Shown: piece after piece, positions 17,086 to 30,417 of the stretch
Layout: every line of letters begins with the position of its first letter
Numbering within the stretch: the first letter of the stretch is position 1
Origin: an uncultured delta proteobacterium
GTDB lineage: Bacteria > Desulfobacterota > Binatia > UBA9968
Length of the DNA stretch: 64,000 nucleotides
Direction: 5' to 3'
Assembly (NCBI GenBank): GCA_963727625.1
Contig: CAVSHR010000006.1
Span: forward strand, 205,547-269,546
The notes under the pieces: model-generated
Seen by the model: the letters and a program-made list of their open reading frames with translations, nothing else
The model's database searches: none
Told to the model about the DNA's origin: nothing
Program-made: the position numbers and the translations under genes

Positions 17086-18066
17086 ATGAAAACCATTCCA
17101 TGCCTAATCCTAATCATCGGGTTGATGGGCGGTGGCGCAATCGCCCAGGCGCAGCAGCCAAAGAAAATCCCGCGGATAGGATTCCTCTATAGCGTTACCT
17201 CTTCCTCGGTGGCGGCCCGCGCCGAGGCATTCCGGCAAGGTCTGCGCGAGCTTGGCTACATTGAAGGGAAGAACATTGTTATTGAGTGGCGATTTGCAGA
17301 GGGAAAACTAGATCGCCTCCCCGCGCTTGTGTCGGAGCTGGTGCGTCTTAAGGTAGACGTGATCGTCACGAGTGGCTCGTCACCAACCCGCTCTGCCAGG
17401 AAAGCAACTGTTTCGATTCCCATTGTGATGGCGCGCGAAACCGATCCTGTTGGGAATGGATTCGTCGCCAGCTTGGCGCGGCCTGGCGGGAACATCACTG
17501 GATTGTCAATTCTCGCCCCGGAGATAAGCGGGAAACAGGTGGGGCTTTTGAAGGAGATTGTTCCCAGGCTCTCACGCGTGGCCGTCCTCGGGACTTCGAC
17601 CACTCTAGGTTGGGCACACTCGTTAAACGAGATGGAGATCGCTGCGGGGGCATTGGGAGTGAAGCTTCAGTACCTAGATGTGCTAAATGTCAAAGACATT
17701 GTGACTGTATTCCGAGCCGCAATTGAGGAGCGTGCTGACGCAGTCCTCGTGCTAGGGAGCCCAATTTACGCTTCTCATCGAAATCAGATTGCGGGCATCG
17801 CGGTAAAAAGCCGGCTTCCGACGATATACCGCAATTCACAATATGTGGAAGCCGGGGGACTTATGTCCTACGGGGTGAACCTGCCCGACTTGGACCGGCG
17901 CGCCGCTATTTATGTGGACAAAATTCTGAAAGGCAGGAAACCCGCAGACCTTCCCGTAGAGCAACCGGTCAAGTTCGAGTTTGTCATCAACCTGAAAACA
18001 GCAAAGCAAATCGGACTCACGATTCCGCCCAATGTACTTGCGCGGGCGAATAAAGTAATAAGGTGA
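17086..18066 (+). CDS. PF04392-type SBP, paralogue 9 (start-stop coupled to the histidine kinase)
   Basis: Signal peptide ending AQAQQPKKIPRIGFL, then ARPGGNITG and [30 protein letters not shown]. Its stop TGA (18064-18066) overlaps GTG 18063 of the kinase ORF. Confidence 0.9.
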   Translation: MKTIPCLILIIGLMGGGAIAQAQQPKKIPRIGFLYSVTSSSVAARAEAFRQGLRELGYIEGKNIVIEWRFAEGKLDRLPALVSELVRLKVDVIVTSGSSPTRSARKATVSIPIVMARETDPVGNGFVASLARPGGNITGLSILAPEISGKQVGLLKEIVPRLSRVAVLGTSTTLGWAHSLNEMEIAAGALGVKLQYLDVLNVKDIVTVFRAAIEERADAVLVLGSPIYASHRNQIAGIAVKSRLPTIYRNSQYVEAGGLMSYGVNLPDLDRRAAIYVDKILKGRKPADLPVEQPVKFEFVINLKTAKQIGLTIPPNVLARANKVIR

Positions 18067-20492
18067 ATACACCGCCCATGAGCCACTGGACCGCAAAGCT
18101 TCGGCAAATGCCTTTCTTAAGAATCTTTGGAGCGCCGCGCCGAGGGCGGTTAGTGCGCGACTACTTTCTGATCTCGGTCATCTTAATTGGCGGCGGGCTG
18201 ATCACCAGCGGCCTCGTCGAAATCTATTTTCGCTATCACGAAAGCCGCGATCAGTTGGGCCGCTTGCAGAAAGAGATCGCCGCCGGCGCCGCCTTCAAGA
18301 TCGAGAGCTTCGTTCAGGAGATTCACAATACCCTCAAGGGCGCGACTAAAAGCCGCGACATCGCGCCCAAGGGACTCACTCCGGACTTTCGCTTCGAGCT
18401 CGAAAAACTTTTGCTGATCGCGCCGGCAGTGACCGAAGCCGTAGCGCTCAATGAGAAAGGCCGGATCCAAGTCCAGGCGTCGCGCCTGCGCACCGTGCTG
18501 CCCGACGCCAGAAAGGATCTTTCCGGCTCGGAACCGTTCAAACAAGCGCGCGAGGGAAAGTCCTATTTCGGCCGGGTCTACTTCGTGCGCGGCTCCGAGC
18601 CCTATATGACGATCGCGGTCCCGATCGAGCGCTTCGCCGGCGACGTCATCGGCGTGCTGCAAGCGGAAGTCAACCTTAAATACATCGGCGATGTCGTTTC
18701 GAGTATCACCATCGGCAAAGCGGGTTATGCCTACGCTGTGAGCCGATCCGGCGAACTGATCGCCCACCCCGACATCAGTTTGGTCTTGCAACGCCGCAAC
18801 GTGCGCCAATTGGCTGCCGTCAAAGCCGCCTTCGAGAGCCAGCCCGGAGTGGCGCCACTAGACGCACTCGTCACAAAAAATATTCAGGGAAAGGAAGTGC
18901 TGAGTTCGTTTGCGATCATTCCCGATTTCGGCTGGGCGGTGATCGTCGACCGGCCCTTGGCCGAGGCCTACGAAGCGCTCTATGCCTCGATGCTGCGCAC
19001 CGCCGCTCTGTTCCTGATCGGTCTCAGCATGGCGCTATTCGCCAGTTATTTTCTCGCCCGCCGCGTCGTGCAACCGGTGCGGATACTGCGCGAAGGCGTG
19101 GAGCGCATCGGTACCGGCGATCTCGGCTATCGGTTGAATCTCAAGACCGGCGACGAAATAGAAGTGCTCGCCGATGAATTCAACAAAATGACTTCCCAGC
19201 TCGAGGAATCTTACGCCAACTTGGAGCAGAAGGTCGAAGACCGCACGAGGGAGCTGACGGAGTCGCTGGAGCAGCAGACGGCGACCAGCGAAGTCCTGCG
19301 CGTCATCGCGGGATCGCCGAAAGATGTCCAACCGGTGCTTGACGTCGTGGCGGAGCGGGCAGCAAAGCTCTGCGACGCCGAGGACGCGATCATCTTTCGC
19401 GCCTTTGGCGATTACCATCAGAGAGTCGCCAAGTTTGGCTCGATTCCAGCCCCGGATTTTCCGGTGTCGATCACGCGCGGTTTTCCCGGCGGCCGAGCCA
19501 TTCTCGACCGGAAGACCGTTCACATCCATGATATCGAGGAGGTGCTCGAGACCGAATATACGGACGTCCGGTCGATTCAAAAAGAGATCGGGCAGCGCAC
19601 CGTGCTCGCCACGCCACTCTTGCGCGAGGGCGTCGCGATCGGCGCCATCGTCATTCGCCGCCTGCAAGTACGGCCGTTTACCGACAAGCAGATTGCGCTG
19701 CTCAAAACCTTCGCCGATCAGGCCGTGATCGCCATCGAAAACGTCCGTCTGTTCCAGGAGATTCAGGAGAAGAACGAACAGCTCGAGGCTGCCAGCCGAC
19801 ACAAATCTCAATTTCTCGCCAACGTCAGCCACGAGCTGCGCACGCCGCTCAATTCGATCATCGGCTTTACAAGAATAGTTTTGCGCCGCACGGAGGGCAA
19901 GATCGAAAGCCTGCAAAAAGAAAATCTGAAAAAAGTTTTGATCAGCGCAGATCATTTGCTGAGCCTGATCAACGAGCTGCTCGACCTGGCAAAGATCGAG
20001 GCGGGGCGGATGGAAGCCTACGCGGAAACGTTTAAAGTCGACGAGATCATCCGCATGGCCATGTCCACGGTCGAACCGATGCTTAGGAACGGCCGGGTAA
20101 ATCTGGTCACGGACATCGCTCCGGACATTCCGCCGCTGAAAACCGATCGAGACAAGCTCAAACAGTCCGTCCTCAATCTTCTCAGCAACGCCGTCAAGTT
20201 CACCGAGAGCGGCGAGATCAAGGTCACAGCGTGGCGAGACAATGGTTCTTTGAAGCTCACCGTATCCGATACCGGCATAGGCATGAACCCGGAAGCGCTC
20301 CGATACATCTTCGACGAGTTCCGCCAGGCTGACATGTCGAGCACGCGCAAATACGGCGGCACGGGCCTTGGCTTGGCCATTGTGAAAAAGTTCATCAATC
20401 TTATGGGCGGCGATATCGTCGTCGCAAGCGAAGAAGGCAAAGGATCGACGTTCACGATCACGATGCCGCTGGAACTGAAAATTCAAGGGTAA
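18063..20492 (+). CDS. Sensor histidine kinase (2 TM + periplasmic Cache-like region, HAMP, GAF, HisKA, HATPase_c)
   Basis: 809 aa. TM1 is FLISVILIGGGLITSGLVEIYF, followed by about 270 aa of periplasmic sequence and TM2. Then HAMP (GTGDLGYRLNLKTGDEIEVLADEFNKM), GAF (TATSEVLRVIAGSPKDVQPVLD...), H-box SHELRTPLNSIIGF, and N/G boxes (LLSNAVKFT, DTGIGM, GGTGLGLAIV). An alternative start is ATG 18078. Confidence 0.9.
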   Translation: MNTPPMSHWTAKLRQMPFLRIFGAPRRGRLVRDYFLISVILIGGGLITSGLVEIYFRYHESRDQLGRLQKEIAAGAAFKIESFVQEIHNTLKGATKSRDIAPKGLTPDFRFELEKLLLIAPAVTEAVALNEKGRIQVQASRLRTVLPDARKDLSGSEPFKQAREGKSYFGRVYFVRGSEPYMTIAVPIERFAGDVIGVLQAEVNLKYIGDVVSSITIGKAGYAYAVSRSGELIAHPDISLVLQRRNVRQLAAVKAAFESQPGVAPLDALVTKNIQGKEVLSSFAIIPDFGWAVIVDRPLAEAYEALYASMLRTAALFLIGLSMALFASYFLARRVVQPVRILREGVERIGTGDLGYRLNLKTGDEIEVLADEFNKMTSQLEESYANLEQKVEDRTRELTESLEQQTATSEVLRVIAGSPKDVQPVLDVVAERAAKLCDAEDAIIFRAFGDYHQRVAKFGSIPAPDFPVSITRGFPGGRAILDRKTVHIHDIEEVLETEYTDVRSIQKEIGQRTVLATPLLREGVAIGAIVIRRLQVRPFTDKQIALLKTFADQAVIAIENVRLFQEIQEKNEQLEAASRHKSQFLANVSHELRTPLNSIIGFTRIVLRRTEGKIESLQKENLKKVLISADHLLSLINELLDLAKIEAGRMEAYAETFKVDEIIRMAMSTVEPMLRNGRVNLVTDIAPDIPPLKTDRDKLKQSVLNLLSNAVKFTESGEIKVTAWRDNGSLKLTVSDTGIGMNPEALRYIFDEFRQADMSSTRKYGGTGLGLAIVKKFINLMGGDIVVASEEGKGSTFTITMPLELKIQG

Positions 20493-20650
20493 GACGGCAA
20501 GAGTAAGAGACCGGGCGTAAGGCAAGTAATGCAGGATCTCTCGAGGAATTTAATCCTGAGCCGATTCGACTTTGCGTCGGGTAAACTTCGCCGAAGGCCT
20601 CAAAAATGTTTTTGGCTTTGCCAGTGGAAGCACCCCGAAGGGAAAAAATA

Positions 20651-21625
20651 ATGCGACAGTGGTTCATCTTCTTCGTACTGCTCGCCGTTAGCGTTTCACG
20701 AACTTGCGATGTGATTGCAGCCGAGCGCGCCCTGCCGGTCAGGATCGGCGTGCTTACGGAGGGATTTGGGCCGACCACCGGTGCAGTAGGCCTGCGGGAT
20801 GGGCTTAAGGGACTTGGTTACCGGGAGGATAAAGATTTCGTGATCGGCGTCCGATTTACTCAGGGCGATGCCTTGGCGCTTCCCGAGGCGGTTAGGAAAC
20901 TTATCCGGCAAGGAGTGGATATTCTGATCACAGAGGGACGGAGCGCAGCAAAGGCAGCTCAACTGGAAACCAAAGTATTGCCGATCGTCTTTGCCGGAGG
21001 TGGCGATCCGGTCGGGTTCGGTCTGATTCGGAGCTTTGCCCGTCCTGGAACTAATATTACGGGTGTAAGCGATCTCGATATTGAGTTGGGCCCCAAGCGC
21101 CTTGAGATTTTTAAGGAGATGATCCCCGAGCTAAATCGTGTGTTATTCCCCTACGATGCGACCGATGCCTACAGCGTTTCCGAGGCGAAGGCGTATCGCG
21201 ATGCCGCGCGTCGGCTCAGAATCGCGCTGATTGAGAAAGAGCTGCGCACTGAGGATGAGGCAAAATCGGTCCTGGGCAAGTTAAGAAAAGGCGACATCCA
21301 CGGCATCCTGTCACCACGTCCGATGACAGCGAATATTCCTGGATACGTCCGCGAGGCGGGTTCCCGGTCTTCCATACCGACGATGTTTGCCGCGACTTTT
21401 TTTGCGGAGAATGGTGGCCTCGCAAGTTACACTCCCAATTCCTACGAATCCGGCCGAATGGCGGCGCGGCTGGTGGACAAGATTCTAAAAGGCGAGAGTC
21501 CCGGTAAAATCCCCGTGGAGGTGAACAACAAGATCGAACTGGTTATCAACCTGAAGGTTGCGAAGGCATTGGGGATCAAGATCGCCCCGCAGGCGTTGTA
21601 TAAGGCAAACCGAGTCATCCGATGA
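20651..21625 (+). CDS. PF04392-type SBP, paralogue 10 (divergent)
   Basis: Signal peptide MRQWFIFFVLLAVSVS, then VRIGVL, LKGLGYREDKD, ARPGTNITG and IELVINLKVAKALGIKIAPQALYKANRVIR. Confidence 0.85.
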   Translation: MRQWFIFFVLLAVSVSRTCDVIAAERALPVRIGVLTEGFGPTTGAVGLRDGLKGLGYREDKDFVIGVRFTQGDALALPEAVRKLIRQGVDILITEGRSAAKAAQLETKVLPIVFAGGGDPVGFGLIRSFARPGTNITGVSDLDIELGPKRLEIFKEMIPELNRVLFPYDATDAYSVSEAKAYRDAARRLRIALIEKELRTEDEAKSVLGKLRKGDIHGILSPRPMTANIPGYVREAGSRSSIPTMFAATFFAENGGLASYTPNSYESGRMAARLVDKILKGESPGKIPVEVNNKIELVINLKVAKALGIKIAPQALYKANRVIR

Positions 21626-22249: not shown

Positions 22250-22341
22250 ATTGGCTCGCGGGCTATCGACGCGGGCTCGTCAGCACGTGCTGGCGCGTCC
22301 CTGGGATAGTGGGGCCCGATTCGACGATACGAAACGATAAA

Positions 22342-22905
22342 ATGAGCAATCGAACGCGGCAGGAAATCGCAGGATTTCTAATTGTGATCGTGGCGATCCT
22401 CGGCACTCCGCCGGAGAATCACGCCGCGGCGCCGGATATGTTGGGGAAACTCCATCTCTCCACCTACCCTCGCGTCACAAAACCGCCAAAGTTCAATGGC
22501 ACCACTATCGATGGCCGGAAGGTATCTCTGGTTTCTCTGGTCGGCAAGGTTGTTGTCGTCAATTTCTGGGCGACCTGGTGCCAAGAATGCCGACTTGAGA
22601 TGCCCATGTTCGAGCAGATGCACCGCGAGTTCGCGGTGCATGGACTCAGTGTTATCGGGATCAATGCTCGCGAAGGGCCAGTGGCCATCCGTGCATACGC
22701 CAAAGAGCTCCGCTTAACTTTTCCCCTGTTGCTCGATCCAAAGGGAGAGATCAATGCGGCTTACGGAGTCGTCGGTCTACCGGCTACTTTTCTCATTGGT
22801 CGCGACAGACGCGCGGTTGCGCGGGCCGTCGGACCGAGAGAGTGGACGAGCAACCCCGCCATCGTCATTATCAGAACGCTCCTGAACGAGCCAATGGACC
22901 GATAA
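22342..22905 (+). CDS. TlpA/ResA-like periplasmic thiol:disulfide oxidoreductase
   Basis: Membrane anchor or signal sequence, then VVVNFWATWCQECRLEMP (CxxC) and GLPATFLIGRD. Confidence 0.85.
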   Translation: MSNRTRQEIAGFLIVIVAILGTPPENHAAAPDMLGKLHLSTYPRVTKPPKFNGTTIDGRKVSLVSLVGKVVVVNFWATWCQECRLEMPMFEQMHREFAVHGLSVIGINAREGPVAIRAYAKELRLTFPLLLDPKGEINAAYGVVGLPATFLIGRDRRAVARAVGPREWTSNPAIVIIRTLLNEPMDR

Positions 22906-22932: not shown

Positions 22933-23298
22933 ATGGAAATGAAAAAAATTCTCGTGGTCGATGACACGGATTGGAACCGCGACCTGCTGGTTCAGCTTCT
23001 GGAGGAAGACTACGAGATACTTCAGGCCGTTGACGGTGCCGAAGGCGTGAGAATAACGGAGCAGAGCAAGCCCGATCTGATCCTCATGGATCTCGGCATG
23101 CCGGTCATGGATGGATGGGAAGCGAGCCGGAGAATCAAAGCCGACCCCGGGCTCAAGCATATTCCGATTATCGCGGTTACGTCCCACGCCATGGTCGGCG
23201 ACGAGATCGAGGCCCGCAAGGCCGGCTGCGACGATTACCTGCCCAAGCCGATCGATGAAGATTTGCTGCTGCAAAAGATCAAAAAATTTCTCGAATAA
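22933..23298 (+). CDS. Stand-alone CheY-like response-regulator receiver
   Basis: 121 aa with ILVVDD, DLILMDLGMPVMDG, and KAGCDDYLPKPI. Confidence 0.9.
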   Translation: MEMKKILVVDDTDWNRDLLVQLLEEDYEILQAVDGAEGVRITEQSKPDLILMDLGMPVMDGWEASRRIKADPGLKHIPIIAVTSHAMVGDEIEARKAGCDDYLPKPIDEDLLLQKIKKFLE

Positions 23299-23341
23299 AT
23301 CAACGATGGCTTATTCGAGTTCAATCGCGCAAAGGTGAGAT

Positions 23342-24424
23342 ATGTTAAACAAGATCCTCATCGTCGACGATGAGCCGTTTAATCTCGACCTCCTCGAGCA
23401 AGAGCTGGGCGACTACGACTACGTGATTGAAAGAGCGACTGATGGCACCGAGGCGCTGGAGAAAACCGCTAGTTTCGAGCCCGATGTCATATTGCTCGAT
23501 TACATGATGCCGCGCATGAACGGGCTCGAAGTCGTCAAACGGCTGCGCGAAAACCCGCAGCATAAGGGCATCCCGGTTATTCTGCTCACGGCCAAGGCAA
23601 CGCAGGAAGACAAAGTGCGCGGCCTCGACGCCGGCGCCGATGACTACGTGACCAAACCTTTCGACTCGATCGAGCTATTGGCGCGGGTGCGCGCCATGTT
23701 GCGGCTCAAGGAAATGCACGACCAACTTGAAGAATGGAACCGAACCCTCGCCGAAAAGGTGCAGGAACAGGTGCACGAGATCGAACGCATGGCCCGCCTC
23801 AAGCGCTATCTCTCGCCGCAAATCGCCGAGACCATCCTTGGCTCGGACGACTCGCTGTTCAAGACCCACCGGCGTGAAATTACCATCGTGTTTCTCGATC
23901 TCAGGGGATTTACCGCCTTCTCCGACAGCGCCGAGCCCGAAGAGGTCATGGAATTTTTGCGCCATTACCACGCCGAGATGGGCCAGTTAGTCTTCAAGTT
24001 CGAGGGCACATTGGAACGTTTCGTGGGCGACGGGATTGTGATAATTTTCAATGATCCGATTCCCTGCGAAAATTACGCCGAGAAGGCGGCGCGAATGGCG
24101 CTGGAGATGCGCGACCGGGTGAAGGAGCTGCGTGCCGCCTGGCGCAAAAAGGGATATGACCTGGATTTGGGCGTCGGCCTGGCGTGCGGTTACGCAACCC
24201 TGGGGACCATGGGCTTCGAAGGACGCATGGACTACGGCACGGTGGGTAATCTGCCGAATCTGGCGGCGCGCCTATGCGCCGAGGCCAAAGGCGGACAGAT
24301 CCTTACCGACCAGAAAACCATGAGTCGATTGGAAGACGGGTTTGCAGCGGAATCGATCCAGGAGCTAAATCTCAAAGGCATCAACCGCCCGGTTACGGCT
24401 TTCAATATCACGGGCGCCAAATAG
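23342..24424 (+). CDS. Response-regulator receiver fused to a class III adenylate/guanylate cyclase (CHD) domain
   Basis: Receiver (ILIVDDE...LLDYMMPRMNG...DAGADDYVTKPF), a coiled linker, then a CHD domain (ITIVFLDLRGFTAFS...ERFVGDGIVIIFNDP...GTVGNLPNLAARL). Confidence 0.9.
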   Translation: MLNKILIVDDEPFNLDLLEQELGDYDYVIERATDGTEALEKTASFEPDVILLDYMMPRMNGLEVVKRLRENPQHKGIPVILLTAKATQEDKVRGLDAGADDYVTKPFDSIELLARVRAMLRLKEMHDQLEEWNRTLAEKVQEQVHEIERMARLKRYLSPQIAETILGSDDSLFKTHRREITIVFLDLRGFTAFSDSAEPEEVMEFLRHYHAEMGQLVFKFEGTLERFVGDGIVIIFNDPIPCENYAEKAARMALEMRDRVKELRAAWRKKGYDLDLGVGLACGYATLGTMGFEGRMDYGTVGNLPNLAARLCAEAKGGQILTDQKTMSRLEDGFAAESIQELNLKGINRPVTAFNITGAK

Positions 24425-24433
24425 CAGGCAGCG

Positions 24434-25366
24434 ATGCGCGGAAAACTTCAACGCGAAGCGAAAAACAAGCGGCCCTTTCGGGTAAAATTCTGGGGCGTGC
24501 GGGGAAGCTATCCGACGGTCGATCCCGATACACTCGCGGTCGGCGGAAACACTTCCTGCGTCGAAGTCGAAGTCGACGGCCGCCGCTTGATCTTCGATGC
24601 CGGCACCGGGATCATCCCGCTCGGCAAAGAGCTGTGCGACGGCGCGGTCGCGCCGCCGACGGCTTATATTTTTTTGAGCCACACCCATATCGATCATGTC
24701 ATGGGACTGTGTTTTTTCGAGCCGCTGCTGACCCCGAAGGCGCATTCTTTCATACTCGGTCCCGGCAATACCCGCGGCGCTCTGACGCGCAGTTTGCGGC
24801 ACTTGACTCACAGCCATCTGTTTCCGGTTTCGCTCGACGAGCTTAAAGGAAAGAAAGAAATCTTTTCCCTCGCCGGCGGCGAATCGATTCGCTTCGGCAC
24901 GACCGCGCGTCGACCGAAAATCGAGTCGGCGAAATCAGCGACTGTCGCCAACGGCGACGAGCTCGTCATCACCACCTGCAAAAGTCCGGCGCATCCACTC
25001 AACGGCGTCATGCTGTATCGGGTTCACTACCGCAACAAGAGTTTCGTCTACGCCACCGATATTGAACAGAAGGAGGGCGGCTATCGAGAGATCATCGAGT
25101 TCGTCCGCGGCACAGACCTGCTGGTTCACGATGCCCAATATCTTTCTGAAGAATATTCGGGACGCGCTAAACCGCGCAAAGGCTGGGGCCACAGCACCAT
25201 CGAAATGGCTGCCGAGGTTGCCCGAAAGGCCAAGGTCAAACGGCTCTTGCTGTTCCACCACGAGCCAACCCACGACGACAAGACCATGAAGAAGATCGAA
25301 AAGCAGACAAAACTGCTCTTTCGCTCGACCGAGGTCGCCCATGAAGGTATGGAAATCACTCTTTAG
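24434..25366 (+). CDS. MBL-fold metallo-hydrolase
   Basis: 310 aa with the HxHxDH motif (FLSHTHIDHVMG) and later HDAQY / GHST metal-ligand-type motifs. Substrate unknown. Confidence 0.8.
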   Translation: MRGKLQREAKNKRPFRVKFWGVRGSYPTVDPDTLAVGGNTSCVEVEVDGRRLIFDAGTGIIPLGKELCDGAVAPPTAYIFLSHTHIDHVMGLCFFEPLLTPKAHSFILGPGNTRGALTRSLRHLTHSHLFPVSLDELKGKKEIFSLAGGESIRFGTTARRPKIESAKSATVANGDELVITTCKSPAHPLNGVMLYRVHYRNKSFVYATDIEQKEGGYREIIEFVRGTDLLVHDAQYLSEEYSGRAKPRKGWGHSTIEMAAEVARKAKVKRLLLFHHEPTHDDKTMKKIEKQTKLLFRSTEVAHEGMEITL

Positions 25367-26402
25367 TCGAACTACAACCGCACCCGATCCGCACAATCAA
25401 TCGTCCGCTACGGGCCCCAGCCGCCGCCTAGACGGGCGTCTGCTCGCCACATCGTTCATGGCACTGTTTCTTCTGCAGCCGCTGTGCACCTTCGCCCAGG
25501 CGCCGGCCCGCGTGGGGATTTTAGTTCGGGAACTGGGCCGTGCTCAGTTCCAGGCGATCAAGGGCCTGACGGAGGAACTCAAACGGCTGGGCTATATAAA
25601 CCGGGAAAATCTCGTTTTGGAAACTCGTAACGTCAAGGGCAGCCGGGCCGCGTTGCAACCCGCGGCCGCCGAGTTAATCGGCCAAAAGGTCGATCTGATT
25701 TTCACCACGGGGACCAGCGCCACCCGCGCGGCCGTGACCGCGACCCGGGAGATTCCAGTTGTGTTTGTTCACCCAGGCGACCCGGTTGCTTCCGGCTTGT
25801 TCAAAAGCGCCGAACTGCGGTCGGCAAACTTGACGGGCGTCGCGGCTTACGCCGGTGAAACCACCGAAAAGAGATTGGCGCTTTTCAATGAAATCTTTCC
25901 TGGGCTCCGAAAGGTCGTGGTCTTCTTTGATGGTAACAATGCCTCTTCGCGCGATAAGTACAAGATGGTCGAAAACTTAGCAAAAAAATCTCATCTCGAA
26001 GCGGCCGCCTTTGCGGTTAAATCCGCCGACGAGTTGCGTACCACCATCGCTAACTTGCACCCTGGAAACGGAATGGGCGTGTTTCAAGTGGCCGATGAGT
26101 TGGTTGAGAGCGAAGCGGAGTTTCTTTTTCAAAACGCTCGGGTGAAGAAAATCGCTACGATGTTCAACGAAGAATCGTGGGCGATTAACGGAGCGCTTGC
26201 CGCTTATGGGCCCAATTACTTTGAAATGGGTCGTCAAGCGGGCGGCCTCGCCGCGAAGATTATCAAAGGGAAGCGCCCGTCCTCCTTGCCGATCGAGCAC
26301 GCAACCCAATTCGATCTGACGCTCAATTATCGCACCAGTCGATTTATCGGCGTGCCGCTTCCCAGGAAGCTGATTAAAAAAGCAAACAAAGTCATTCGCT
26401 AG
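25341..26402 (+). CDS. PF04392-type SBP, paralogue 11 (most divergent)
   Basis: Hydrophobic leader FMALFLLQPLCTFAQAPARVGILV, then LKRLGYINRENL and a C-terminus FDLTLNYRTSRFIGVPLPRKLIKKANKVIR. The start is uncertain, since the ORF overlaps the MBL gene by 26 nt. Confidence 0.75.
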   Translation: MKVWKSLFSRTTTAPDPHNQSSATGPSRRLDGRLLATSFMALFLLQPLCTFAQAPARVGILVRELGRAQFQAIKGLTEELKRLGYINRENLVLETRNVKGSRAALQPAAAELIGQKVDLIFTTGTSATRAAVTATREIPVVFVHPGDPVASGLFKSAELRSANLTGVAAYAGETTEKRLALFNEIFPGLRKVVVFFDGNNASSRDKYKMVENLAKKSHLEAAAFAVKSADELRTTIANLHPGNGMGVFQVADELVESEAEFLFQNARVKKIATMFNEESWAINGALAAYGPNYFEMGRQAGGLAAKIIKGKRPSSLPIEHATQFDLTLNYRTSRFIGVPLPRKLIKKANKVIR

Positions 26403-26405
26403 GCT

Positions 26406-29066
26406 ATGGAAACCCTCGCCGATATCATTCGCAGCATTCCGATATTTTCCGGCGTTTCGCGCGAAGATATCGCCAAAATCCTGGGCAAAATGGAAGAGGA
26501 ATCGTTCGGCGCCGGAGAGACGATTTTTTCCCAAGGCGACCAGGGTGACGCATTTTATTTGATTCAATCCGGTGCGGTGCAAGTCATTCTAGAAAGCGGC
26601 GCCGGTAAATCGGATGTCGTCGCTATTCTTGGGCCGCGCGATTGGTTCGGGGAAATGGCTTTGCTTTCGGGCGAGCCTCGCTCGGCAACAATTGACACGG
26701 TCAAGAAAACCGTTCTTTGGCGGCTCCGACGCGAGGATTGGGACGAATTGATCGAAAAGCACCCGACTTGGTTGCTGCAATTTTGCGCCACCCTGAGCAA
26801 AAGGCTTTCTTACGTTGATCGCCAATACTCGACCGGACGCGAGGCGTTCAACTCCTTGGCCGAGGAGTTTTACGCGGCGCGCTCGCCCGACGATCAAGCA
26901 TTTTTTCGCCAAGCGTCCTTGCTGCGCGCCATCGACAGGAAAACTTTGGCCGAGCTGCTTTCCGTCGCGGCGCCTGCCAATCTCTTAACCGAGCTCGCCG
27001 CGAGCCAATTCCCGCTGATCCGTCGTTTGGAACAAGACCGTTACGAGCTGCATAGTTTTTTTCGCGAATTCCTCCACGAGAAATTGTTCGCCACCGACGG
27101 CGCCGAAGCAAAAGAACGGCTCCATCGTCAATTTGCCGACCGGTACGAAGCCATTGGCGATTGGCAGGAGGCGGCTCATCATGCCCTGCAAGTTCAGGAT
27201 TGGTCCAAAGCGAGCAAGCTGCTGACGGCGGCAGATGAGCAATCCCTGGCCGGCGCGGCGCTATTCGTTAAAAACACTTTGGACGATTTCCCTCAAGAGC
27301 AATTCTTGGCCGATCCCCGCCTGGTCAACCTCAAGAGCAACGCTTTGATTCAACTGGGCGATAGGGTCGGCGCCTATCGGGCCTATCGCGAAATCCTGGC
27401 CCGCAAGACATCCGGCGCGGCGGACAACGACGGCATCGCCGGCTACCGCCGCATGGCCGAAACCCTGGCGCAGCGCAAAGAATACGGGCAGGCGATCCAT
27501 CACCTGCGCAGCGCGCTCAACCTGATCAGCCAGGAAGCGACGGCGTCGGACAGTTACCAAGAAACTCTCCCGGAAATGACGTGGCCCGGGATGGCCCTCC
27601 CGCCGCTATCGGATAGCGGCGGGAGGACGCTGCGAATCGGCCTGCGTTCATGGAGTCCTTGGCTCCGCTCTTCGTCATTGAGTAAATGGTTCGGCGCGCT
27701 TCTGGGACTAGCAGTCGGTGGTTTTCTGTGGTTCGGTCAACCGGATATCGGCTTGGATCCGTCCGCCACGAAGCTCCTGGGCTTGATTTCTGCAACGCTG
27801 ACCTTTTGGGTCTTCAGGTCCCTGCCGGACTACGGCGTCGCCTTGGCGTTTGCCATGATCATCATTCTCACGCGCTTGGAATCGCCGCAAACGGTGATGG
27901 GCGGTTTCGCCAGCACGACCTGGTTTATGACGCTGGGTGTCCTCGGACTTGGCGCGGCGATTACCGGCTGCGGCCTATTCTATCGCCTCTCGCTGCATCT
28001 CGTGCGTCTGTTTCCGTTGAGCTATTACTGGCAAATCGTTGCCACCGGCATCATGGGCGTCGTTGTCATGGCGCTGATTCCGCAGCAAACCGCGCGCACG
28101 GTGATCACCAGCCAGATGCTGGTCAATCTTTCCGAAAGCCTAGGCTACAAGACACCGTCCAGAGCATCCACCGGCCTATTCGTGGCAAGTTTTCTCGGTC
28201 TCGGCCAACTAGGATTTTTGTTTTTGACCGGCTCGACGACGAGCTTGATCGCCTGGGGTCTTTTGCCCGCCGACGTGCGCGCGCAATTTACTTGGGGCTT
28301 TTGGTTCCTCGCCGCTTTGCCCCCTACCCTCGTGGTAATCGTTATCATTCTGCTTTGCACGATCTTGCTCTACCGCCCGGAGTCGCGACCGAAGATTTCC
28401 TACACGATGGTGCAAACCCAGCTCAGTATTCTCGGACCCCTGTCTCATAAAGAATGGATCAGCTTCGCCGTGCTGATTTTCACGGTGACAGGCTGGCTCA
28501 CGGCGCCCTATCACGGCGTCGACGGCGCGTGGATTGCGATCATCGCCTTTGCCATTCTAGTCAACACCGGTACTCTCGATTGGAACATGATGCGCAAGGG
28601 CATCGACTGGGAATTGTTGATTTACATGGGCGTGACTTTAAGCATACCGACGCTCTTAAGGCAGGCGAAGATCGACCAGTGGCTGGTCGAGGTGATTTCG
28701 CCTTTGATTCTGCCGTTCATCAACAGCCCGGCCTGGTTTTTCGTGGTGATCGCGCTTTTGACTTACGCGCTCAAGCTGATCTTTACGAGTTTTCTCACCG
28801 TGGTCACTCTATGCGTCGCATTGTTGCCGTTATCCATCGACGTCGGTATGAGCCCGTGGATCATCACCATGATTATCTTGATCGCTTCCGAGGTGTGGTT
28901 TTTCCCCTATCAGATCGACTGGCATATGCTCGCCTACTCCACCACCGACGGCAAAGGTTTCTCTTATCCACTTATGTGCCGTATCAATATTTTTTACGCC
29001 ATCGCGTACTTGACCGCGTTGATCGTCGCGATTCCCTACTGGCGCTACTTGGGTTTGATCAATTAG
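26406..29066 (+). CDS. Fusion protein: cNMP-binding domain + helical-repeat (MalT/TPR-like) region + DASS/SLC13-like (IT-superfamily) permease
   Basis: 886 aa. The N-terminus has a Crp-type cNMP fold (IPIFSGVSREDIAKI...FGEMALLSGEPRSATIDT). Residues from about 150 to 400 are helical repeats. The C-terminal part of about 450 aa is polytopic membrane domain with an anion-permease-like pattern. Confidence 0.75.
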   Translation: METLADIIRSIPIFSGVSREDIAKILGKMEEESFGAGETIFSQGDQGDAFYLIQSGAVQVILESGAGKSDVVAILGPRDWFGEMALLSGEPRSATIDTVKKTVLWRLRREDWDELIEKHPTWLLQFCATLSKRLSYVDRQYSTGREAFNSLAEEFYAARSPDDQAFFRQASLLRAIDRKTLAELLSVAAPANLLTELAASQFPLIRRLEQDRYELHSFFREFLHEKLFATDGAEAKERLHRQFADRYEAIGDWQEAAHHALQVQDWSKASKLLTAADEQSLAGAALFVKNTLDDFPQEQFLADPRLVNLKSNALIQLGDRVGAYRAYREILARKTSGAADNDGIAGYRRMAETLAQRKEYGQAIHHLRSALNLISQEATASDSYQETLPEMTWPGMALPPLSDSGGRTLRIGLRSWSPWLRSSSLSKWFGALLGLAVGGFLWFGQPDIGLDPSATKLLGLISATLTFWVFRSLPDYGVALAFAMIIILTRLESPQTVMGGFASTTWFMTLGVLGLGAAITGCGLFYRLSLHLVRLFPLSYYWQIVATGIMGVVVMALIPQQTARTVITSQMLVNLSESLGYKTPSRASTGLFVASFLGLGQLGFLFLTGSTTSLIAWGLLPADVRAQFTWGFWFLAALPPTLVVIVIILLCTILLYRPESRPKISYTMVQTQLSILGPLSHKEWISFAVLIFTVTGWLTAPYHGVDGAWIAIIAFAILVNTGTLDWNMMRKGIDWELLIYMGVTLSIPTLLRQAKIDQWLVEVISPLILPFINSPAWFFVVIALLTYALKLIFTSFLTVVTLCVALLPLSIDVGMSPWIITMIILIASEVWFFPYQIDWHMLAYSTTDGKGFSYPLMCRINIFYAIAYLTALIVAIPYWRYLGLIN

Positions 29067-29073
29067 CTCGGCC

Positions 29074-30417
29074 ATGAGCCAAACTATTCTCATCGTCGAC
29101 GACGAACCGCTCAATCTCGATCTCTTGGAACAGGAGCTGTCCGATCTCGGTTATCCAGTCGATAAGGCAGACGGCGGCCGCGCGGCTTTGGCGCAACTGG
29201 CCGCGAAACCCGCCGATCTCGTTCTACTCGACTACCAGATGCCCGGCTTGAACGGCATCGAGGTATTAGGCGAGATTAAGAAAAGAGAGCCTGGCCTGCC
29301 GGTCATCATCATCACGGCCTACGGCACCATCGAACGCGCCGTCGAAGCGATTAAAGCCGGCGCGGACGATTTCATCACCAAGCCCTTTGACCCAGAGCAT
29401 CTTGCGGTCGTCGTCAACAAAGCCCTGGAAAAAGCCCGGCTTCGCTCCGAAGTGGAATTGCTCACGCGCGAGCTCGCCGGCCGTTATTATCTGGTTGCGG
29501 GAAATAGCATCGCGATGGCGGCGGCGCTGGCCGACGCGAAGAAAGCGGCGCGCAGCACGACTACTGTGTTACTGCTTGGCGAGAGCGGCACCGGCAAAGA
29601 GATTTTCGCCCGCTCGATTCACGAATGGAGCGATCGAGCGGCCCGGCCTTTCGTCGCGATCAACTGCGCCGGACTTTCCAAGGAGTTACTCGAAAGCGAG
29701 CTGTTCGGCCACGAACGCGGCGCCTTCACCGGCGCGCACCAGGCGAAGAAAGGCAAGATGGAAACGGCCGACGGCGGCACGGTCTTTCTCGATGAGGTTG
29801 GCGATATCGCGCCCGAGCTGCAAACCAAGCTGCTGCGCTTTCTCCAAGAGCGCGAATTCGAGCGGGTTGGCGGCATCCAGCCCATCCGCGTCGATATCAA
29901 AATCATCGCCGCGACCAACAAGAATCTCGAGGAAACGGTGCAACGCGGTTCGTTCCGCGAAGACTTGTACCACCGGCTGAACGTCATCGCGATCGCACTG
30001 CCGCCGTTGCGCGATCGAAAAGATGACATCCCCGCCTTGGCGGACTATTTTTTGCGCCGCTTTGCATCGGAGACGAAAAAACCCTTCACCGGCTTGAGTG
30101 AAGACGCCTTGGCTCGGTTGTGCGCCTACGCTTGGCCCGGCAATGTGCGGGAATTGGCCAACGTCATTGAGCGCGGCGTTGTCTTGGGCGACGGCCCTCG
30201 ATTTGCCGCTGATCATTTGCCGGCGCGGATGATCGGCACCGCAGCCGCATCGCCACCGGAGGCAAGACAATTTCACGACGCTGTGAATAGCCACCGCCGC
30301 GCGTTGATCGTCGACGCCCTCGCGCGCGCCCAGGGCAACCGCGCGGCGGCGGCAAAAACCCTCGGCCTGCACCGTACCCACCTGCTCAAGCTGATGAAGG
30401 CGCTCGGGATCACCTGA
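29074..30417 (+). CDS. Sigma-54-dependent (NtrC-family) response regulator
   Basis: Receiver (ILIVDDE...LLDYQMPGLNG), AAA+ module (GESGTGKE, ESELFGHERGAFTGA, RFLQEREFERVGG) and a C-terminal Fis-type HTH (GNRAAAAKTLGLHRTHLLKLMKAL). Confidence 0.92.
   Translation: MSQTILIVDDEPLNLDLLEQELSDLGYPVDKADGGRAALAQLAAKPADLVLLDYQMPGLNGIEVLGEIKKREPGLPVIIITAYGTIERAVEAIKAGADDFITKPFDPEHLAVVVNKALEKARLRSEVELLTRELAGRYYLVAGNSIAMAAALADAKKAARSTTTVLLLGESGTGKEIFARSIHEWSDRAARPFVAINCAGLSKELLESELFGHERGAFTGAHQAKKGKMETADGGTVFLDEVGDIAPELQTKLLRFLQEREFERVGGIQPIRVDIKIIAATNKNLEETVQRGSFREDLYHRLNVIAIALPPLRDRKDDIPALADYFLRRFASETKKPFTGLSEDALARLCAYAWPGNVRELANVIERGVVLGDGPRFAADHLPARMIGTAAASPPEARQFHDAVNSHRRALIVDALARAQGNRAAAAKTLGLHRTHLLKLMKALGIT

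What the first reader, a model, noticed from the sequence alone, without database searches (positions are those of the whole stretch)
22933..30417. Tightly packed two-component / cyclic-nucleotide module at the end of the SBP array
**Gene order.** On one strand, with gaps of 3-45 nt or overlaps, the genes are:
- CheY-like receiver
- receiver-class III cyclase
- MBL-fold hydrolase
- SBP paralogue 11
- cNMP-binding permease fusion
- NtrC-type sigma-54 activator

**What the block contains.** It has a phospho-regulated maker of cAMP or cGMP. It has a candidate degrader: the MBL fold with HxHxDH is the fold of class II cNMP phosphodiesterases, although the substrate cannot be called here. It also has a cNMP receptor that is itself a transporter, and a transcriptional output.

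**Model.** With the upstream kinase, the logic is SBP or ligand, then HK, then receivers, then cNMP, then a gated permease plus sigma-54 transcription. I do not recognise this combination as a described system.
Basis: inference. Interest (0 to 1): 0.7.

Follow-up and report, generated by a model that had tools for sequence, protein, structure and literature searches.

The report
Cyclic-nucleotide circuit around a gated permease
An uncultured soil bacterium (Candidatus Binatia) has a conserved gene block in which a phosphorylation-controlled cyclase and a breakdown enzyme sit next to a membrane transporter that carries its own cyclic-nucleotide sensor and a dedicated binding protein, a signalling-plus-transport unit I found described in no paper.

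Summary
**Observation.** Confirmed.

**Co-conservation.** I compared 37 species-level loci.
- The stable core is the cNMP-binding/DASS fusion plus its own SBP orthogroup (SBP11 type). The SBP lies directly upstream in 21 of 31 loci that can be judged.
- A class III cyclase and a phosphoesterase are usually nearby.
- The cyclase slot varies: receiver-cyclase or CHASE2-cyclase.
- The hydrolase slot also varies and the two types never co-occur: this MBL protein, or a bona fide class II cAMP phosphodiesterase (PF02112). This swap is the best indirect evidence that the MBL protein degrades the messenger.

**NtrC activator.** It occurs only in a sublineage. There it co-occurs with a conserved sigma-54 promoter (window 5488-5506) that heads the SBP-array/kinase operon. 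The unit therefore spans about 5350-30417.

**New points.**
- The cyclase has Arg/Gly at the base-specifying positions, not the adenylate-cyclase pair Lys/Asp or Lys/Thr. The product is undetermined.
- Firmicute homologues carry a binding-protein domain fused to the C-terminus, which suggests a binding-protein-dependent, cNMP-gated elevator transporter.

**Limit.** No biochemistry exists and all function is inferred.

The parts
5350..5391 (+). Conserved upstream block, a candidate enhancer (UAS) for the NtrC-type activator. It lies about 100-140 nt upstream of the promoter.
   Evidence: In alignment A3 the block TGTCGCAgTTTGACTACA..GTATCAAAACgACTAC is conserved between the window and L009, L010 and L011, although the flanking genes differ. 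Sequence read. Its function is inferred.
5488..5506 (+). Sigma-54 (-24/-12) promoter TGGTACAACAGTTGCGCTA at the head of the SBP-array/kinase operon.
   Evidence: There is one match in the window against 0.04 expected. Exact matches occur only in L009, L010 and L011 among 83 loci, and these are the loci with NtrC next to the fusion. Six metagenome contigs carry promoter plus leader, and five of them have NtrC directly upstream.
5588..5623 (+). Conserved leader with ribosome-binding site (GCCGGAAGG) and the probable true start ATG (5621) of SBP1.
   Evidence: Alignment A3. The signal peptide starts at MMNKVILG. Sequence read.
5621..18066 (+). Array of nine secreted PF04392 binding proteins (SBP1-9), with two small unassigned ORFs (11379-11936 and 13222-13812). 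SBP9 overlaps the kinase start by 4 nt.
   Evidence: Pfam. Signal peptides. Pairwise identities are 31-70% within the array. No ABC permease or ATPase was found among the main ORFs annotated across the 64 kb.
18063..20492 (+). Membrane sensor histidine kinase: periplasmic dCache, HAMP, GAF, HisKA (H-box HELRTP at residue 590) and HATPase_c. It has no receiver domain.
   Evidence: Pfam. H-box and two transmembrane segments. Orthologues lie next to REC and REC-cyclase in L002, L010, L011, L039 and L091.
20606..21625 (+). SBP10 (PF04392), a divergent paralogue between the kinase and the receiver genes.
   Evidence: Pfam. It is 31-38% identical to the other SBPs.
22309..22905 (+). AhpC/TSA (TlpA-like) thiol-disulfide oxidoreductase, 27 nt upstream of the first receiver. 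Its membership of the unit is doubtful.
   Evidence: Pfam. No such gene lies at this position in L002, L004 or L039.
22933..23298 (+). Single-domain CheY-like receiver (REC1), with DD10-11, D53, T83 and K105.
   Evidence: Pfam 99 bits. Residues checked. Orthologues are 72-86% identical and sit next to the kinase and cyclase in L002, L004, L007, L010, L011, L017, L039 and L091.
23342..24424 (+). Receiver, coiled coil with CTE-like motif (LKRYLSPQIAETIL), and class III nucleotidyl cyclase. The base-specifying residues are Arg/Gly.
   Evidence: Pfam. The best solved relatives are CyaB 3r5g (1.6e-35) and Cya2 2w01. Residue table across 30 linked cyclases.
24434..25366 (+). Cytoplasmic MBL-fold phosphodiesterase-clade hydrolase (HTHIDH, H187, D209, H232-D233, H253, H275). 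It is the candidate degrader of the messenger.
   Evidence: Pfam PF12706. The model has pLDDT 74.7. Foldseek top hits are RNase Z, YhfI and the PhnP family, with yeast PDE1 and Apyc1 at 1e-8. It is never found together with PF02112 in sister loci.
25341..26402 (+). SBP11: a secreted PF04392 binding protein of a separate orthogroup. It ends 3 nt before the permease start.
   Evidence: Pfam 172 bits. Signal peptide. All 25 SBPs directly upstream of a fusion gene have SBP11 as their best match, at 43-66% identity.
26406..29066 (+). Fusion protein of 886 aa. It has a CRP-like cNMP-binding module (1-215), helical repeats (217-383), a disordered linker, and a DASS/SLC13-fold membrane domain (424-886).
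   Evidence: Pfam. The model has pLDDT 80.6. Foldseek gives AtDiT2.1 TM 0.85 and VcINDY TM 0.82-0.84, and the N-terminus aligns to CAP 4ev0. The phosphate-binding cassette FGEMALLSGEPRSAT is conserved (G82 and E83 invariant, R92 nearly so).
29074..30417 (+). NtrC-type sigma-54 activator: REC (D53), AAA+ domain (GESGTGK at 169, GAFTGA at 216) and HTH_8. It is an accessory, sublineage-specific output.
   Evidence: Pfam. Motifs. It directly follows the fusion in L009-L011 and L090-L092. It is absent in L001, L002, L004, L007 and L039.

Best explanation
This is a self-contained second-messenger circuit built around a regulated uptake system.

1. A periplasmic signal is sensed by the dCache histidine kinase, probably with help from array-type binding proteins.
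2. The kinase phosphorylates three receivers: a stand-alone REC, the REC of the cyclase and the REC of the NtrC-type activator.
3. Phosphorylation switches on the class III cyclase through its coiled-coil/CTE linker. The cyclase makes a 3',5'-cyclic nucleotide whose base is not predictable, because the specificity residues are Arg/Gly.
4. The nucleotide binds the CRP-like domain at the cytoplasmic N-terminus of the DASS-fold permease and changes its activity.
5. The permease works with its dedicated periplasmic binding protein SBP11, in the manner of a TRAP transporter.
6. The cytoplasmic MBL phosphodiesterase hydrolyses the nucleotide and resets the switch.
7. In the sublineage that has it, phospho-NtrC activates the sigma-54 promoter at 5488. 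This raises expression of the SBP array and the kinase, and possibly the whole + strand block, giving a positive loop.

**Shown:** the domains, the intact catalytic and binding residues, the co-conservation, and the promoter conservation.

**Inferred:** every functional link, the direction of regulation, and the substrate.
For: **Co-conservation in Binatia.**
- Domain calls and intact residues.
- The order HK-REC-REC/cyclase-MBL-SBP-fusion recurs in several Binatia species. In L009-L011 the same gene set appears circularly permuted as MBL-SBP-fusion-NtrC-promoter-(SBPs)-HK-REC-REC/cyclase.
- Of 15 species loci with at least 4 kb on both sides, 9 have a class III cyclase and 10 have a phosphoesterase within 10 kb.

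**Non-orthologous displacement.**
- L015 and L034 keep the REC-cyclase orthologue, the SBP11 orthologue and the fusion, but carry a class II cAMP PDE (PF02112, 68 bits, no signal peptide) instead of the MBL gene.
- L013 and L014 combine the PDE with a CHASE2-cyclase.
- No locus has both hydrolases.

**Linkage beyond Binatia.**
- In Desulfoscipio gibsoniae a CHASE2-cyclase lies next to the cNMP-DASS homologue.
- L088 reads CHAT, CHASE2-cyclase, DUF928, cNMP-DASS.

**SBP partnership.**
- SBP11-type genes lie directly upstream of the fusion in 21 of 31 loci. They form their own orthogroup.
- P0291 and the D. gibsoniae protein WP_006523567.1 carry a Peripla_BP_6 domain fused to the C-terminus of a homologous cNMP-DASS. 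Against the window protein the DASS part is 29% identical (E=1e-56) and the CNB part is 39% identical.
- The DASS fold is that of TRAP membrane subunits, and gene fusion was the key argument for the TAXI-GltS class (PMC12344293).
- No ABC membrane or ATPase genes appear among the annotated ORFs of the window.

**Sigma-54 link:**
Against: - No experiment exists for any component.
- The MBL protein is not in PF02112. By fold it is closest to RNase Z, YhfI and PhnP, so its substrate is open.
- The hairpin motifs of the DASS domain depart from those of characterised DASS proteins: IPQQTAR against IPSVSARAGG, and FFPYQIDW in the second. Transport activity and substrate are therefore unproven.
- About a third of the loci, including the Rokubacteria and Methylomirabilota homologues, have neither SBP, cyclase nor hydrolase nearby. 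The fusion can evidently work without local partners.
- Most short-form homologues have no adjacent SBP.
- Most co-conservation is within one class (Binatia), so part of it reflects common descent.
- The background frequency of cyclases in Binatia genomes was not measured.
Confidence: 0.55

Rival explanations
1. The fusion is a sensor (a 'transceptor') rather than a gated transporter. On this view the DASS-fold domain, with SBP11, detects an external ligand. The CRP-like/helical-repeat module integrates that with cNMP and passes the signal to partner proteins. The block is then purely a signalling node.
For: - The hairpin motifs are diverged.
- A 170-residue helical-repeat (MalT-like/TPR) module, typical of protein-protein interaction, sits between the sensor and membrane domains.
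- Homologues in L085 and L088 are followed directly by a GAF histidine kinase and a NarL-type regulator.
- Homologues in L084 and L087 sit inside NHLP/C39-ABC peptide-export clusters.
Against: - The complete DASS elevator fold is retained: TM 0.85 to AtDiT2.1 with rmsd 3.2 A.
- Many membrane-domain positions are invariant across homologues of 25-34% identity.
- The Rokubacteria and Methylomirabilota homologues sit among catabolic genes (hydantoinase A), as expected for a transporter.
- No output domain is present in the fusion.
Confidence: 0.2
2. The adjacency is largely historical. On this view the fusion answers to the cell's general cAMP pool, the MBL protein has an unrelated housekeeping role (RNase Z/PhnP-like), and the two-component genes regulate only the SBP array.
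For: - Flanks are syntenic across Binatia: a TPP enzyme and Trx-TPR upstream; AhpC, DsbD and M17 peptidase downstream. Shared order can therefore come from descent.
- Some loci have the fusion alone.
- JGI annotates the MBL orthologues as PhnP or RNase BN.
Against: - The gene set stays together through rearrangement, as the circular permutation in L009-L011 against the window shows.
- The cyclase and hydrolase slots are refilled by unrelated family members.
- Cyclase linkage recurs in other phyla.
- The MBL protein scores far below the RNase Z cut-off: 87 bits against 293.
Confidence: 0.15
3. The block is a Pycsar-like anti-phage system: a cyclase makes a cyclic (pyrimidine) nucleotide that activates a membrane effector carrying a cNMP-binding domain.
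For: - PADLOC PycC profiles hit the cyclase (58 bits), and Pycsar effector profiles hit the cNMP domain (51 bits).
- The base-specifying residues are non-canonical.
- Apyc1, the phage anti-Pycsar enzyme, has the same MBL fold (rank 45).
Against: - The PADLOC hits are at domain level only and are weaker than the generic Pfam hits.
- The cyclase is under two-component control, which is not a Pycsar feature.
- The effector is a full 460-residue DASS transporter fold with a dedicated SBP.
- The locus is a syntenic core-genome region next to mreBCD, PBP2 and rodA, not a defence island.
- A resident degrading enzyme would defeat an abortive-infection signal.
Confidence: 0.03

Closest known systems
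TRAP transporters and the recently proposed TAXI-GltS class (binding-protein-dependent secondary transporters; PMC12344293)
   Same: - A secreted binding-protein gene is tightly coupled to an elevator-fold secondary transporter gene.
- TRAP membrane subunits share the DASS fold.
- Natural SBP-transporter fusions exist in Gram-positive relatives (P0291, WP_006523567.1).
   Different: - The SBP is PF04392 (Peripla_BP_6 in the fused forms), not DctP, TAXI or TctC.
- The membrane part is a DASS/SLC13 homologue, not DctQM, TctAB or GltS.
- The transporter carries a cytoplasmic cNMP-binding module.
- No transport data exist.
Cya2 of Synechocystis (CHASE2-regulated class III guanylate cyclase, PDB 2w01) and CyaB of P. 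aeruginosa (3r5g)
   Same: - They are the closest solved cyclase domains, at 1e-27 and 1.6e-35.
- The metal Asp pair and the Asn/Arg pair are identical.
- Gly at the second base-specifying position matches Cya2.
- CHASE2-cyclases replace the REC-cyclase in sister loci.
   Different: - The first base-specifying residue is Arg. It is Glu in Cya2 (GTP) and Lys in CyaB (ATP).
- The Tyr that boosts GC activity in Cya2 is Ala here.
- The input is a phospho-receiver, as in PleD, rather than CHASE2.
Class II 3',5'-cNMP phosphodiesterases (PF02112: yeast PDE1, V. fischeri CpdP) and Apyc1
   Same: - MBL fold with HxHxDH.
- Detectable structural similarity: 4ojv at 9e-9 and 7u2r at 2e-8.
- A true PF02112 gene occupies the equivalent slot in sister loci.
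   Different: - The window protein does not match PF02112.
- It belongs to PF12706 and is structurally nearer to RNase Z, YhfI and PhnP.
- Its activity is untested.
Prokaryotic cyclic-nucleotide-gated channels (MloK1, SthK) and cNMP-domain fusions to MFS transporters noted in reviews (PMC10710835)
   Same: A cNMP-binding domain is fused to a membrane transport protein, so the messenger acts directly on flux. SthK's cNMP domain is a sequence match at 5.6e-14.
   Different: - The membrane part is an elevator-type carrier, not a channel or an MFS protein.
- The sensor is N-terminal and CRP-like, followed by helical repeats.
- The system has a dedicated cyclase, hydrolase and SBP encoded alongside.
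SPX-regulated DASS-fold phosphate transporters (yeast Pho90; Foldseek rank 35-39)
   Same: A DASS-fold carrier with a large N-terminal cytoplasmic domain that senses a small signalling molecule.
   Different: - The sensor is an SPX domain binding inositol pyrophosphates, not a cNMP domain.
- The system is eukaryotic.
- It has no SBP.

Membership tests
Class III nucleotidyl cyclase (PF00211) | Match to the catalytic-domain profile above the curated cut-off | tested here: met
   75.4 bits against a cut-off of 21.9, covering profile positions 7-179 of 183. CyaB 3r5g matches at 1.6e-35.
Class III nucleotidyl cyclase (PF00211) | Two metal-binding Asp plus the transition-state Asn and Arg | tested here: met
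   D in FLDLRGFT, D in VGDG, and N and R in PNLAARL. All are conserved in every REC-cyclase orthologue.
Adenylate cyclase (class III, ATP-specific) | Base-specifying pair Lys plus Asp (or Thr in class IIIb) | tested here: not met
   Arg aligns with the Lys of CyaB and CyaC, and Gly with their Thr. None of the 27 complete fusion-linked cyclases in the alignment has a Lys-Asp or Lys-Thr pair. The rule comes from PMC4215837.
Guanylate cyclase (class III, GTP-specific) | Glu at the first base-specifying position, with Cys, Ser, Thr, Gly or similar at the second | tested here: not met
   The first position is Arg, not Glu. The second is Gly, as in Cya2 (PMC4215837 and PMC5995499). The product cannot be assigned.
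Class II cNMP phosphodiesterase (PF02112) | Match to the PDEase_II profile | tested here: not met
   No PF02112 hit at E<=0.01 for the window MBL protein. The L014 neighbour does match, at 67.9 bits against a cut-off of 23.7. BLASTP between the two finds only the HxHxDH motif.
Class II cNMP phosphodiesterase (PF02112) | Hydrolysis of 3',5'-cAMP or 3',5'-cGMP | not testable with these tools
   This needs an enzyme assay. The only indirect support is that the MBL gene and PF02112 never co-occur in sister loci.
RNase Z (TIGR02651) | Score above the equivalog cut-off | tested here: not met
   87.4 bits against a cut-off of 292.95, in two separate stretches. It is the best fold match, but with TM of only about 0.6.
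DASS / SLC13 transporters | Membrane-domain profile and fold | tested here: met
   PF00939 scores 121 bits against a cut-off of 27, over profile positions 3-471 of 472. Foldseek gives AtDiT2.1 TM 0.85 and VcINDY TM 0.82-0.84. The narrower TIGR00785 model scores 122 bits, below its cut-off of 198.6.
DASS / SLC13 transporters | Conserved hairpin-tip motifs that bind cation and substrate | tested here: inconclusive
   The first motif is partly kept: IPQQTAR against DiT1 IPSVSARAGG, and distant homologues have IPSxxGR. The second is replaced by FFPYQ(I/S)xW.
cNMP-binding domain (PF00027) | Profile match and phosphate-binding cassette (Gly-Glu ... Arg-Ser/Thr-Ala) | tested here: met
   85 bits. The cassette is FGEMALLSGEPRSAT. 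G82 and E83 are invariant and R92 is at least 90% conserved among homologues of 25-54% identity.
NtrC-family sigma-54 enhancer-binding protein | REC with acceptor Asp, AAA+ domain with GAFTGA, C-terminal HTH | tested here: met
   PF00072, PF00158 (236 bits) and PF02954. D53, GESGTGK at 169 and GAFTGA at 216. It scores below the cut-offs of AtoC, NtrC and ZraR, so it is not one of those named regulators.
NtrC-family sigma-54 enhancer-binding protein | A cognate -24/-12 promoter | tested here: met
   TGGTACA-N4-TTGCGCTA occurs at 5488-5506. It is conserved and co-occurs with the NtrC gene. Binding and activation are not tested.
TRAP / TTT binding-protein-dependent secondary transporters | DctP, TAXI or TctC binding protein with DctQM or TctAB membrane subunits | tested here: not met
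   The SBP is PF04392 and the membrane protein is PF00939. The system may work like a TRAP transporter but is not a member.
Pycsar anti-phage system | Stand-alone PycC cyclase plus a small TM or TIR effector with a cNMP domain, in a defence context | tested here: not met
   There are only domain-level PADLOC hits. The cyclase has a receiver domain and the effector is a DASS carrier with an SBP. The neighbours are housekeeping genes.
Two-component phosphorelay | HisKA H-box and HATPase in the kinase; the Asp/Thr/Lys set in the receivers | tested here: met
   HELRTP at 590. All three receivers have DD, D, T and K. Which receiver the kinase serves is not testable here.

The most novel reading that the evidence does not exclude
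[quoted passage not shown] Its activity would be gated directly by a locally made and locally destroyed cyclic nucleotide. That nucleotide may be cGMP or a non-canonical one, since none of the 27 complete fusion-linked cyclases in the alignment has the adenylate-cyclase residue pair. It would be the first bacterial carrier shown to be switched by a dedicated second-messenger circuit. It would also be a further SBP-dependent carrier family beyond TRAP, TTT and TAXI-GltS.
Probability: 0.35. Interest if true: 0.85.

Novelty: new variant of a known kind. Interest (0 to 1): 0.7.

Why it matters
**cNMP signalling.** Apart from CRP-type regulators and a few channels, direct targets of cAMP or cGMP in bacteria are poorly known. 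Here a whole circuit is written in one operon and conserved across a widespread soil lineage: input kinase, regulated cyclase, degrader, effector and transcriptional output. Homologues of the effector occur in Firmicutes, Desulfobacterota relatives, Verrucomicrobia, Rokubacteria and Methylomirabilota.

**Transport.** The transport field is asking why only elevator-type carriers recruit binding proteins, and is looking for new classes of such systems (PMC12344293). A PF04392/DASS pair, with natural SBP-DASS fusions in a cultured organism (Desulfoscipio gibsoniae, Desgi_2849), would be a testable new case.

**Cyclase specificity.** The Arg/Gly specificity pair is conserved in a whole orthogroup of receiver-cyclases. 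It is a concrete test case for the rules of base selection in class III cyclases.

Tried and rejected
- **16-sequence fusion alignment.** It was too diverse for the genome scan. A 6-sequence alignment worked, but its search pattern lay in the cNMP domain. As a result 43 of the 80 loci (L041-L083, mostly Myxococcota) were off-target and I ignored them.
- **Homologue lists.** The lists for the fusion and for the MBL protein were saturated by Binatia sequences of more than 72% identity. Distant relatives came only from the representative search.
- **Generic sigma-54 consensus.** It is not enriched in the window: 20 matches against 29 expected. Only the specific variant TGGTACA-N4-TTGCGCTA is informative.
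- **cNMP feedback through the kinase's GAF domain.** There is no NKFDE-type motif, so nothing supports this idea.
- **Pycsar defence reading.** Only domain-level PADLOC hits.
- **MBL substrate.** PDB sequence search and Foldseek place the protein in the phosphodiesterase clade but cannot separate substrates.
- **SBP11 against the fused PBP domain of the D. gibsoniae protein.** No detectable sequence similarity. The 'Rosetta stone' argument is therefore by analogy of domain class, not by orthology.
- **The Metallophos/5'-nucleotidase in type C loci as a third cytoplasmic PDE replacement.** I rejected this because it has a signal peptide and is periplasmic.
- **Rfam.** No hits in the window.
- **Literature.** Searches for cNMP-DASS, CHASE2/SLC13 and PF04392 found no description of the system. 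The search for mycobacterial cNMP-transporter fusions returned nothing usable.

Full report
**1. What is in the sequence**

Their spacings are +43, +9, -26, +3 and +7 nt. Pfam confirms each call:
- a single receiver (22933-23298);
- a receiver plus class III cyclase (23342-24424);
- a Lactamase_B_2 MBL protein with HTHIDH (24434-25366);
- a PF04392 binding protein (25341-26402);
- an 886-residue cNMP_binding plus Na_sulph_symp fusion (26406-29066);
- a REC/sigma-54 AAA+/HTH_8 activator (29074-30417).

Upstream lie ten more PF04392 genes and a dCache-HAMP-GAF-HisKA-HATPase kinase (18063-20492) whose start overlaps SBP9 by 4 nt. All eleven binding proteins have signal peptides. None of the main ORFs I annotated in the 64 kb window is an ABC permease or ATPase, so these are 'orphan' SBPs.

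All functional residues are in place:
- DD/D/T/K in the three receivers, and the H-box HELRTP in the kinase;
- GESGTGK and GAFTGA in the activator;
- two metal Asp, Asn and Arg in the cyclase;
- the Gly-Glu...Arg-Ser-Ala cassette in the cNMP domain.

Names on near-identical database proteins place the window in Candidatus Binatia.

**2. Is the block conserved?**

The fusion protein has more than 120 homologue clusters at 74-87% identity, all with the same architecture and annotated only as 'SLC13 permease' or 'anion transporter'. A search of 1.84 billion cluster representatives found full-length relatives down to 25-34% identity. A scan of one genome per species returned 37 loci with a full-length fusion. 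Thirty-five are from the Binatia clade (53-80% identity) and two are from Rokubacteria and Methylomirabilota (about 30%). I mapped domains on all of them with tblastn and iterated HMM searches, and checked key genes with Pfam.

Locus types:
- **Closest relatives.** HK, REC, REC/cyclase, MBL, SBP, fusion in L002-L004, L007, L008 and L039.
- **Circular permutation.** MBL, SBP, fusion, NtrC, promoter, (SBPs), HK, REC, REC/cyclase in L009-L011.
- **Type B.** Class II PDE (divergent), SBP, fusion, CHASE2-cyclase, FecR in L013 and L014. L015 and L034 read REC/cyclase, class II PDE, SBP, cyclase, fusion.
- **Type C.** Periplasmic 5'-nucleotidase (divergent), SBP, fusion, TPR, CHASE2-cyclase, CHAT in six species.
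- **Other variants.** REC, REC/cyclase, MBL, fusion, CHASE2-cyclase in L017. MBL, (cyclase), fusion in L025 and L027.
- **No partners.** L020, L026, L028, L031, L033, L036 and L040.

Counts:
- An SBP lies directly upstream on the same strand in 21 of 31 loci with enough upstream DNA.
- Among 15 loci with at least 4 kb on both sides, 9 have a cyclase, 10 a phosphoesterase, 8 both, 3 a kinase and 1 an NtrC gene.

**3. The hydrolase**

By sequence the window MBL protein is not a class II PDE: it gives no PF02112 hit. It is not RNase Z either, scoring 87 bits against a cut-off of 293. An AlphaFold model (pLDDT 74.7) is closest to RNase Z, the B. anthracis ELAC homologue 1zkp, YhfI and PhnP-family enzymes. 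Yeast PDE1 and Apyc1 follow at about 1e-8. This is the phosphodiesterase clade of the MBL superfamily, but the substrate is unresolved.

The informative evidence is genomic. In L013-L015 and L034 the MBL gene is absent, and a cytoplasmic protein that does match PF02112 (67.9 bits, no signal peptide) sits beside the same SBP11-fusion pair. In L015 and L034 it also sits beside the same REC-cyclase orthologue. No locus has both hydrolases. Such non-orthologous displacement is what one expects if both fill the role of messenger degrader. The MBL gene also stays next to the fusion where the SBP is missing (L017, L025, L027).

**4. The cyclase**

The nearest solved domains are CyaB (3r5g, 1.6e-35) and the guanylate cyclase Cya2 (2w01). 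In a joint alignment, all REC-cyclase orthologues have Arg where adenylate cyclases have Lys and guanylate cyclases have Glu. They have Gly (Ser in two, Asp in one) where adenylate cyclases have Asp or Thr. The rules are stated in PMC4215837 and PMC5995499.

The other cyclases linked to the fusion carry Asn/Gly, Asp/Gly, Glu/Thr or Glu/Gly (the last Cya2-like), and one has Lys/Ala. None has the canonical adenylate-cyclase pair. The messenger may therefore be cGMP or something else, and it cannot be called from sequence. The REC-cyclase linker contains a coiled coil and a CTE-like motif (LKRYLSPQIAETIL), as in other signal-regulated class III cyclases.

**5. The effector and its binding protein**

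The fusion model (pLDDT 80.6) has:
- a CRP-like N-terminus (cNMP domain, long helix, winged-helix-like unit), which aligns to Thermus CAP;
- helical repeats (217-383);
- a disordered linker;
- a complete DASS fold, with TM 0.85 and rmsd 3.2 A to AtDiT2.1 and TM 0.82-0.84 to VcINDY.

The hairpin motifs are only partly canonical, so the substrate and coupling ion are open.

SBP11 is 27-33% identical to SBP1-10, whereas SBP2-4 and SBP7-9 are 46-70% identical to one another. All 25 SBPs found directly upstream of a fusion gene have SBP11 as their best match, at 43-66% identity. SBP11 is thus a separate orthogroup inherited with the permease, and it ends 3 nt before the permease start.

Two homologues carry a Peripla_BP_6 binding-protein domain fused to the C-terminus of a cNMP-DASS protein: P0291 and the Desulfoscipio gibsoniae protein AGL02250.1/WP_006523567.1 (Desgi_2849). 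The D. gibsoniae protein is clearly homologous to the window protein, with the DASS part 29% identical at E=1e-56 and the cNMP part 39% identical. From my own knowledge of VcINDY topology, that C-terminus is on the outside.

Before 2025 only TRAP and TTT carriers were known to use soluble SBPs. TRAP membrane subunits share the DASS fold, and SBP-carrier gene fusions were the main argument for the new TAXI-GltS class (PMC12344293). By the same logic, the SBP11/fusion pair is a candidate binding-protein-dependent carrier, here with a second-messenger sensor attached.

**6. Linkage outside Binatia**

- In D. gibsoniae the fused gene lies 1.7 kb from a divergent CHASE2-cyclase and an OmpR-type regulator. 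It sits beside NHase-alpha-like leader peptides, an HlyD-like protein and two ABC exporters, one of which has a C39 peptidase domain.
- In L088 the order is CHAT, CHASE2-cyclase, DUF928, cNMP-DASS, GAF kinase, NarL regulator.
- In L085 two tandem cNMP-DASS genes precede a GAF kinase and a NarL regulator.
- L086 and L089 show no signalling partners of this kind next to the gene.
- The Rokubacteria and Methylomirabilota loci put the fusion next to a hydantoinase A gene and other catabolic genes.

Cyclase linkage therefore recurs across phyla but is not universal. The family is a widespread cNMP effector for which I found no published characterisation.

**7. The sigma-54 branch**

The generic sigma-54 consensus is not enriched in the window. 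One site, however, is conserved exactly: TGGTACAACAGTTGCGCTA at 5488-5506, ahead of SBP1. It matches L009, L010 and L011 and none of the other 80 loci held at that point. These three are the loci in which NtrC directly follows the fusion.

The alignment also shows a conserved block about 100-140 nt upstream (window 5350-5391, a candidate enhancer). It further shows a conserved leader with a ribosome-binding site, which moves the SBP1 start to 5621.

A metagenome scan for promoter plus leader gave six contigs:
- Five have NtrC immediately upstream of the promoter.
- In three of these five the fusion precedes NtrC.
- The promoter is followed by SBP(s); HK follows in two contigs (L091, L094), and REC1 follows HK in L091.

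L002 and L003 lack NtrC and lack the promoter ahead of their kinase.

The activator is therefore an accessory output confined to a sublineage. There it most likely drives the SBP-array/kinase operon, giving a positive loop. In the window the same parts are arranged as promoter, SBPs, HK ... fusion, NtrC, so the functional unit spans about 5350-30417.

**8. Rivals**

- **Sensor ('transceptor') reading.** It remains plausible because of the diverged hairpins, the helical-repeat module and the kinase/regulator neighbours of some homologues.
- **Pure-history reading.** It is weakened by the permutation, the slot refilling and the cross-phylum linkage.
- **Pycsar-like defence reading.** It is unlikely (and the housekeeping context).
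- **cNMP feedback on the kinase through its GAF domain.** It has no support.

**9. Verdict**

I would make four changes:
- SBP11 belongs with the permease.
- NtrC is accessory, but it has an identifiable target promoter 24 kb upstream.
- The messenger's identity is open.
- The MBL's role is supported by displacement, not by family membership.

I found no described system of this kind in the literature searched. All parts belong to known families, so I rate this a new variant of known kinds. Every functional statement is an inference from sequence, structure prediction and gene context.

Noticed in passing
window 53405-53420 (+): A perfect sigma-54 consensus, TGGCACAGCGGTTGCT, lies just inside the annotated TTG start of an SLT/LysM lytic transglycosylase ORF (53351-54667). 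The true start is probably downstream, and the gene may be sigma-54 dependent.
   Followed up: partly
window 5525-26402: There are eleven secreted PF04392 binding-protein genes, and none of the main ORFs annotated in the 64 kb is an ABC permease or ATPase. The array members SBP2-4 and SBP7-9 are 46-70% identical to each other and vary in number between genomes. Two unassigned ORFs (11379-11936, weakly cupin-like; 13222-13812, no family) sit inside the array.
   Followed up: partly
L018, L021, L022, L030, L032, L035 (e.g. L021:7285-8850, - strand): In six Binatia species a periplasmic Metallophos/5'-nucleotidase (UshA/CpdB-like, with a signal peptide) is divergently adjacent to the SBP11-fusion pair. 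This may hint that the transported solute is a nucleotide breakdown product.
   Followed up: partly
L084 (Desulfoscipio gibsoniae CP003273.1, 2887204-2904233): The cNMP-DASS-PBP fusion sits in a cluster with NHase-alpha-like leader peptides, a radical SAM enzyme, an HlyD-like protein and two ABC exporters (one with a C39 peptidase domain). This is an NHLP-type peptide export cluster next to a CHASE2-cyclase. L087 shows a similar exporter context.
   Followed up: no
P0326 (representative search; Pfam): A 1380-residue protein fuses a CstA carbon-starvation transporter, a cNMP-binding domain and a DASS domain in one chain.
   Followed up: no
L001:7985-8924 and L001:631-6590: In this Binatia genome the MBL gene is split into two ORFs and many array SBP genes are fragmented. 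This could be sequencing frameshifts or decay of the locus.
   Followed up: no
L011:11405-11420: A second strong sigma-54-like site, TGGCACGAGGCCTGCA, lies about 130 nt upstream of the REC-cyclase gene in L011. No equivalent site was found in the window.
   Followed up: no
window 22309-22905 and 31424-32721: Two paralogous AhpC/TSA (TlpA-like) genes bracket the block. The downstream one is paired with a DsbD/CcdA membrane protein, and that pair follows the fusion in L001 and L002. The window copy at 22309, together with SBP10, looks like a lineage-specific insertion between the kinase and REC1.
   Followed up: partly
window 30418-31423: A 1 kb stretch after the NtrC gene has no convincing ORF and no Rfam match. 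A terminator-like hairpin lies at 31229-31254.
   Followed up: partly
L036 and L040 (Rokubacteria and Methylomirabilota): The 30%-identical full-length homologues of the fusion lie next to a hydantoinase/oxoprolinase A gene, a PF04199 'putative cyclase' (kynurenine formamidase-like) and hydrolases. No nucleotidyl cyclase or SBP is present.
   Followed up: partly
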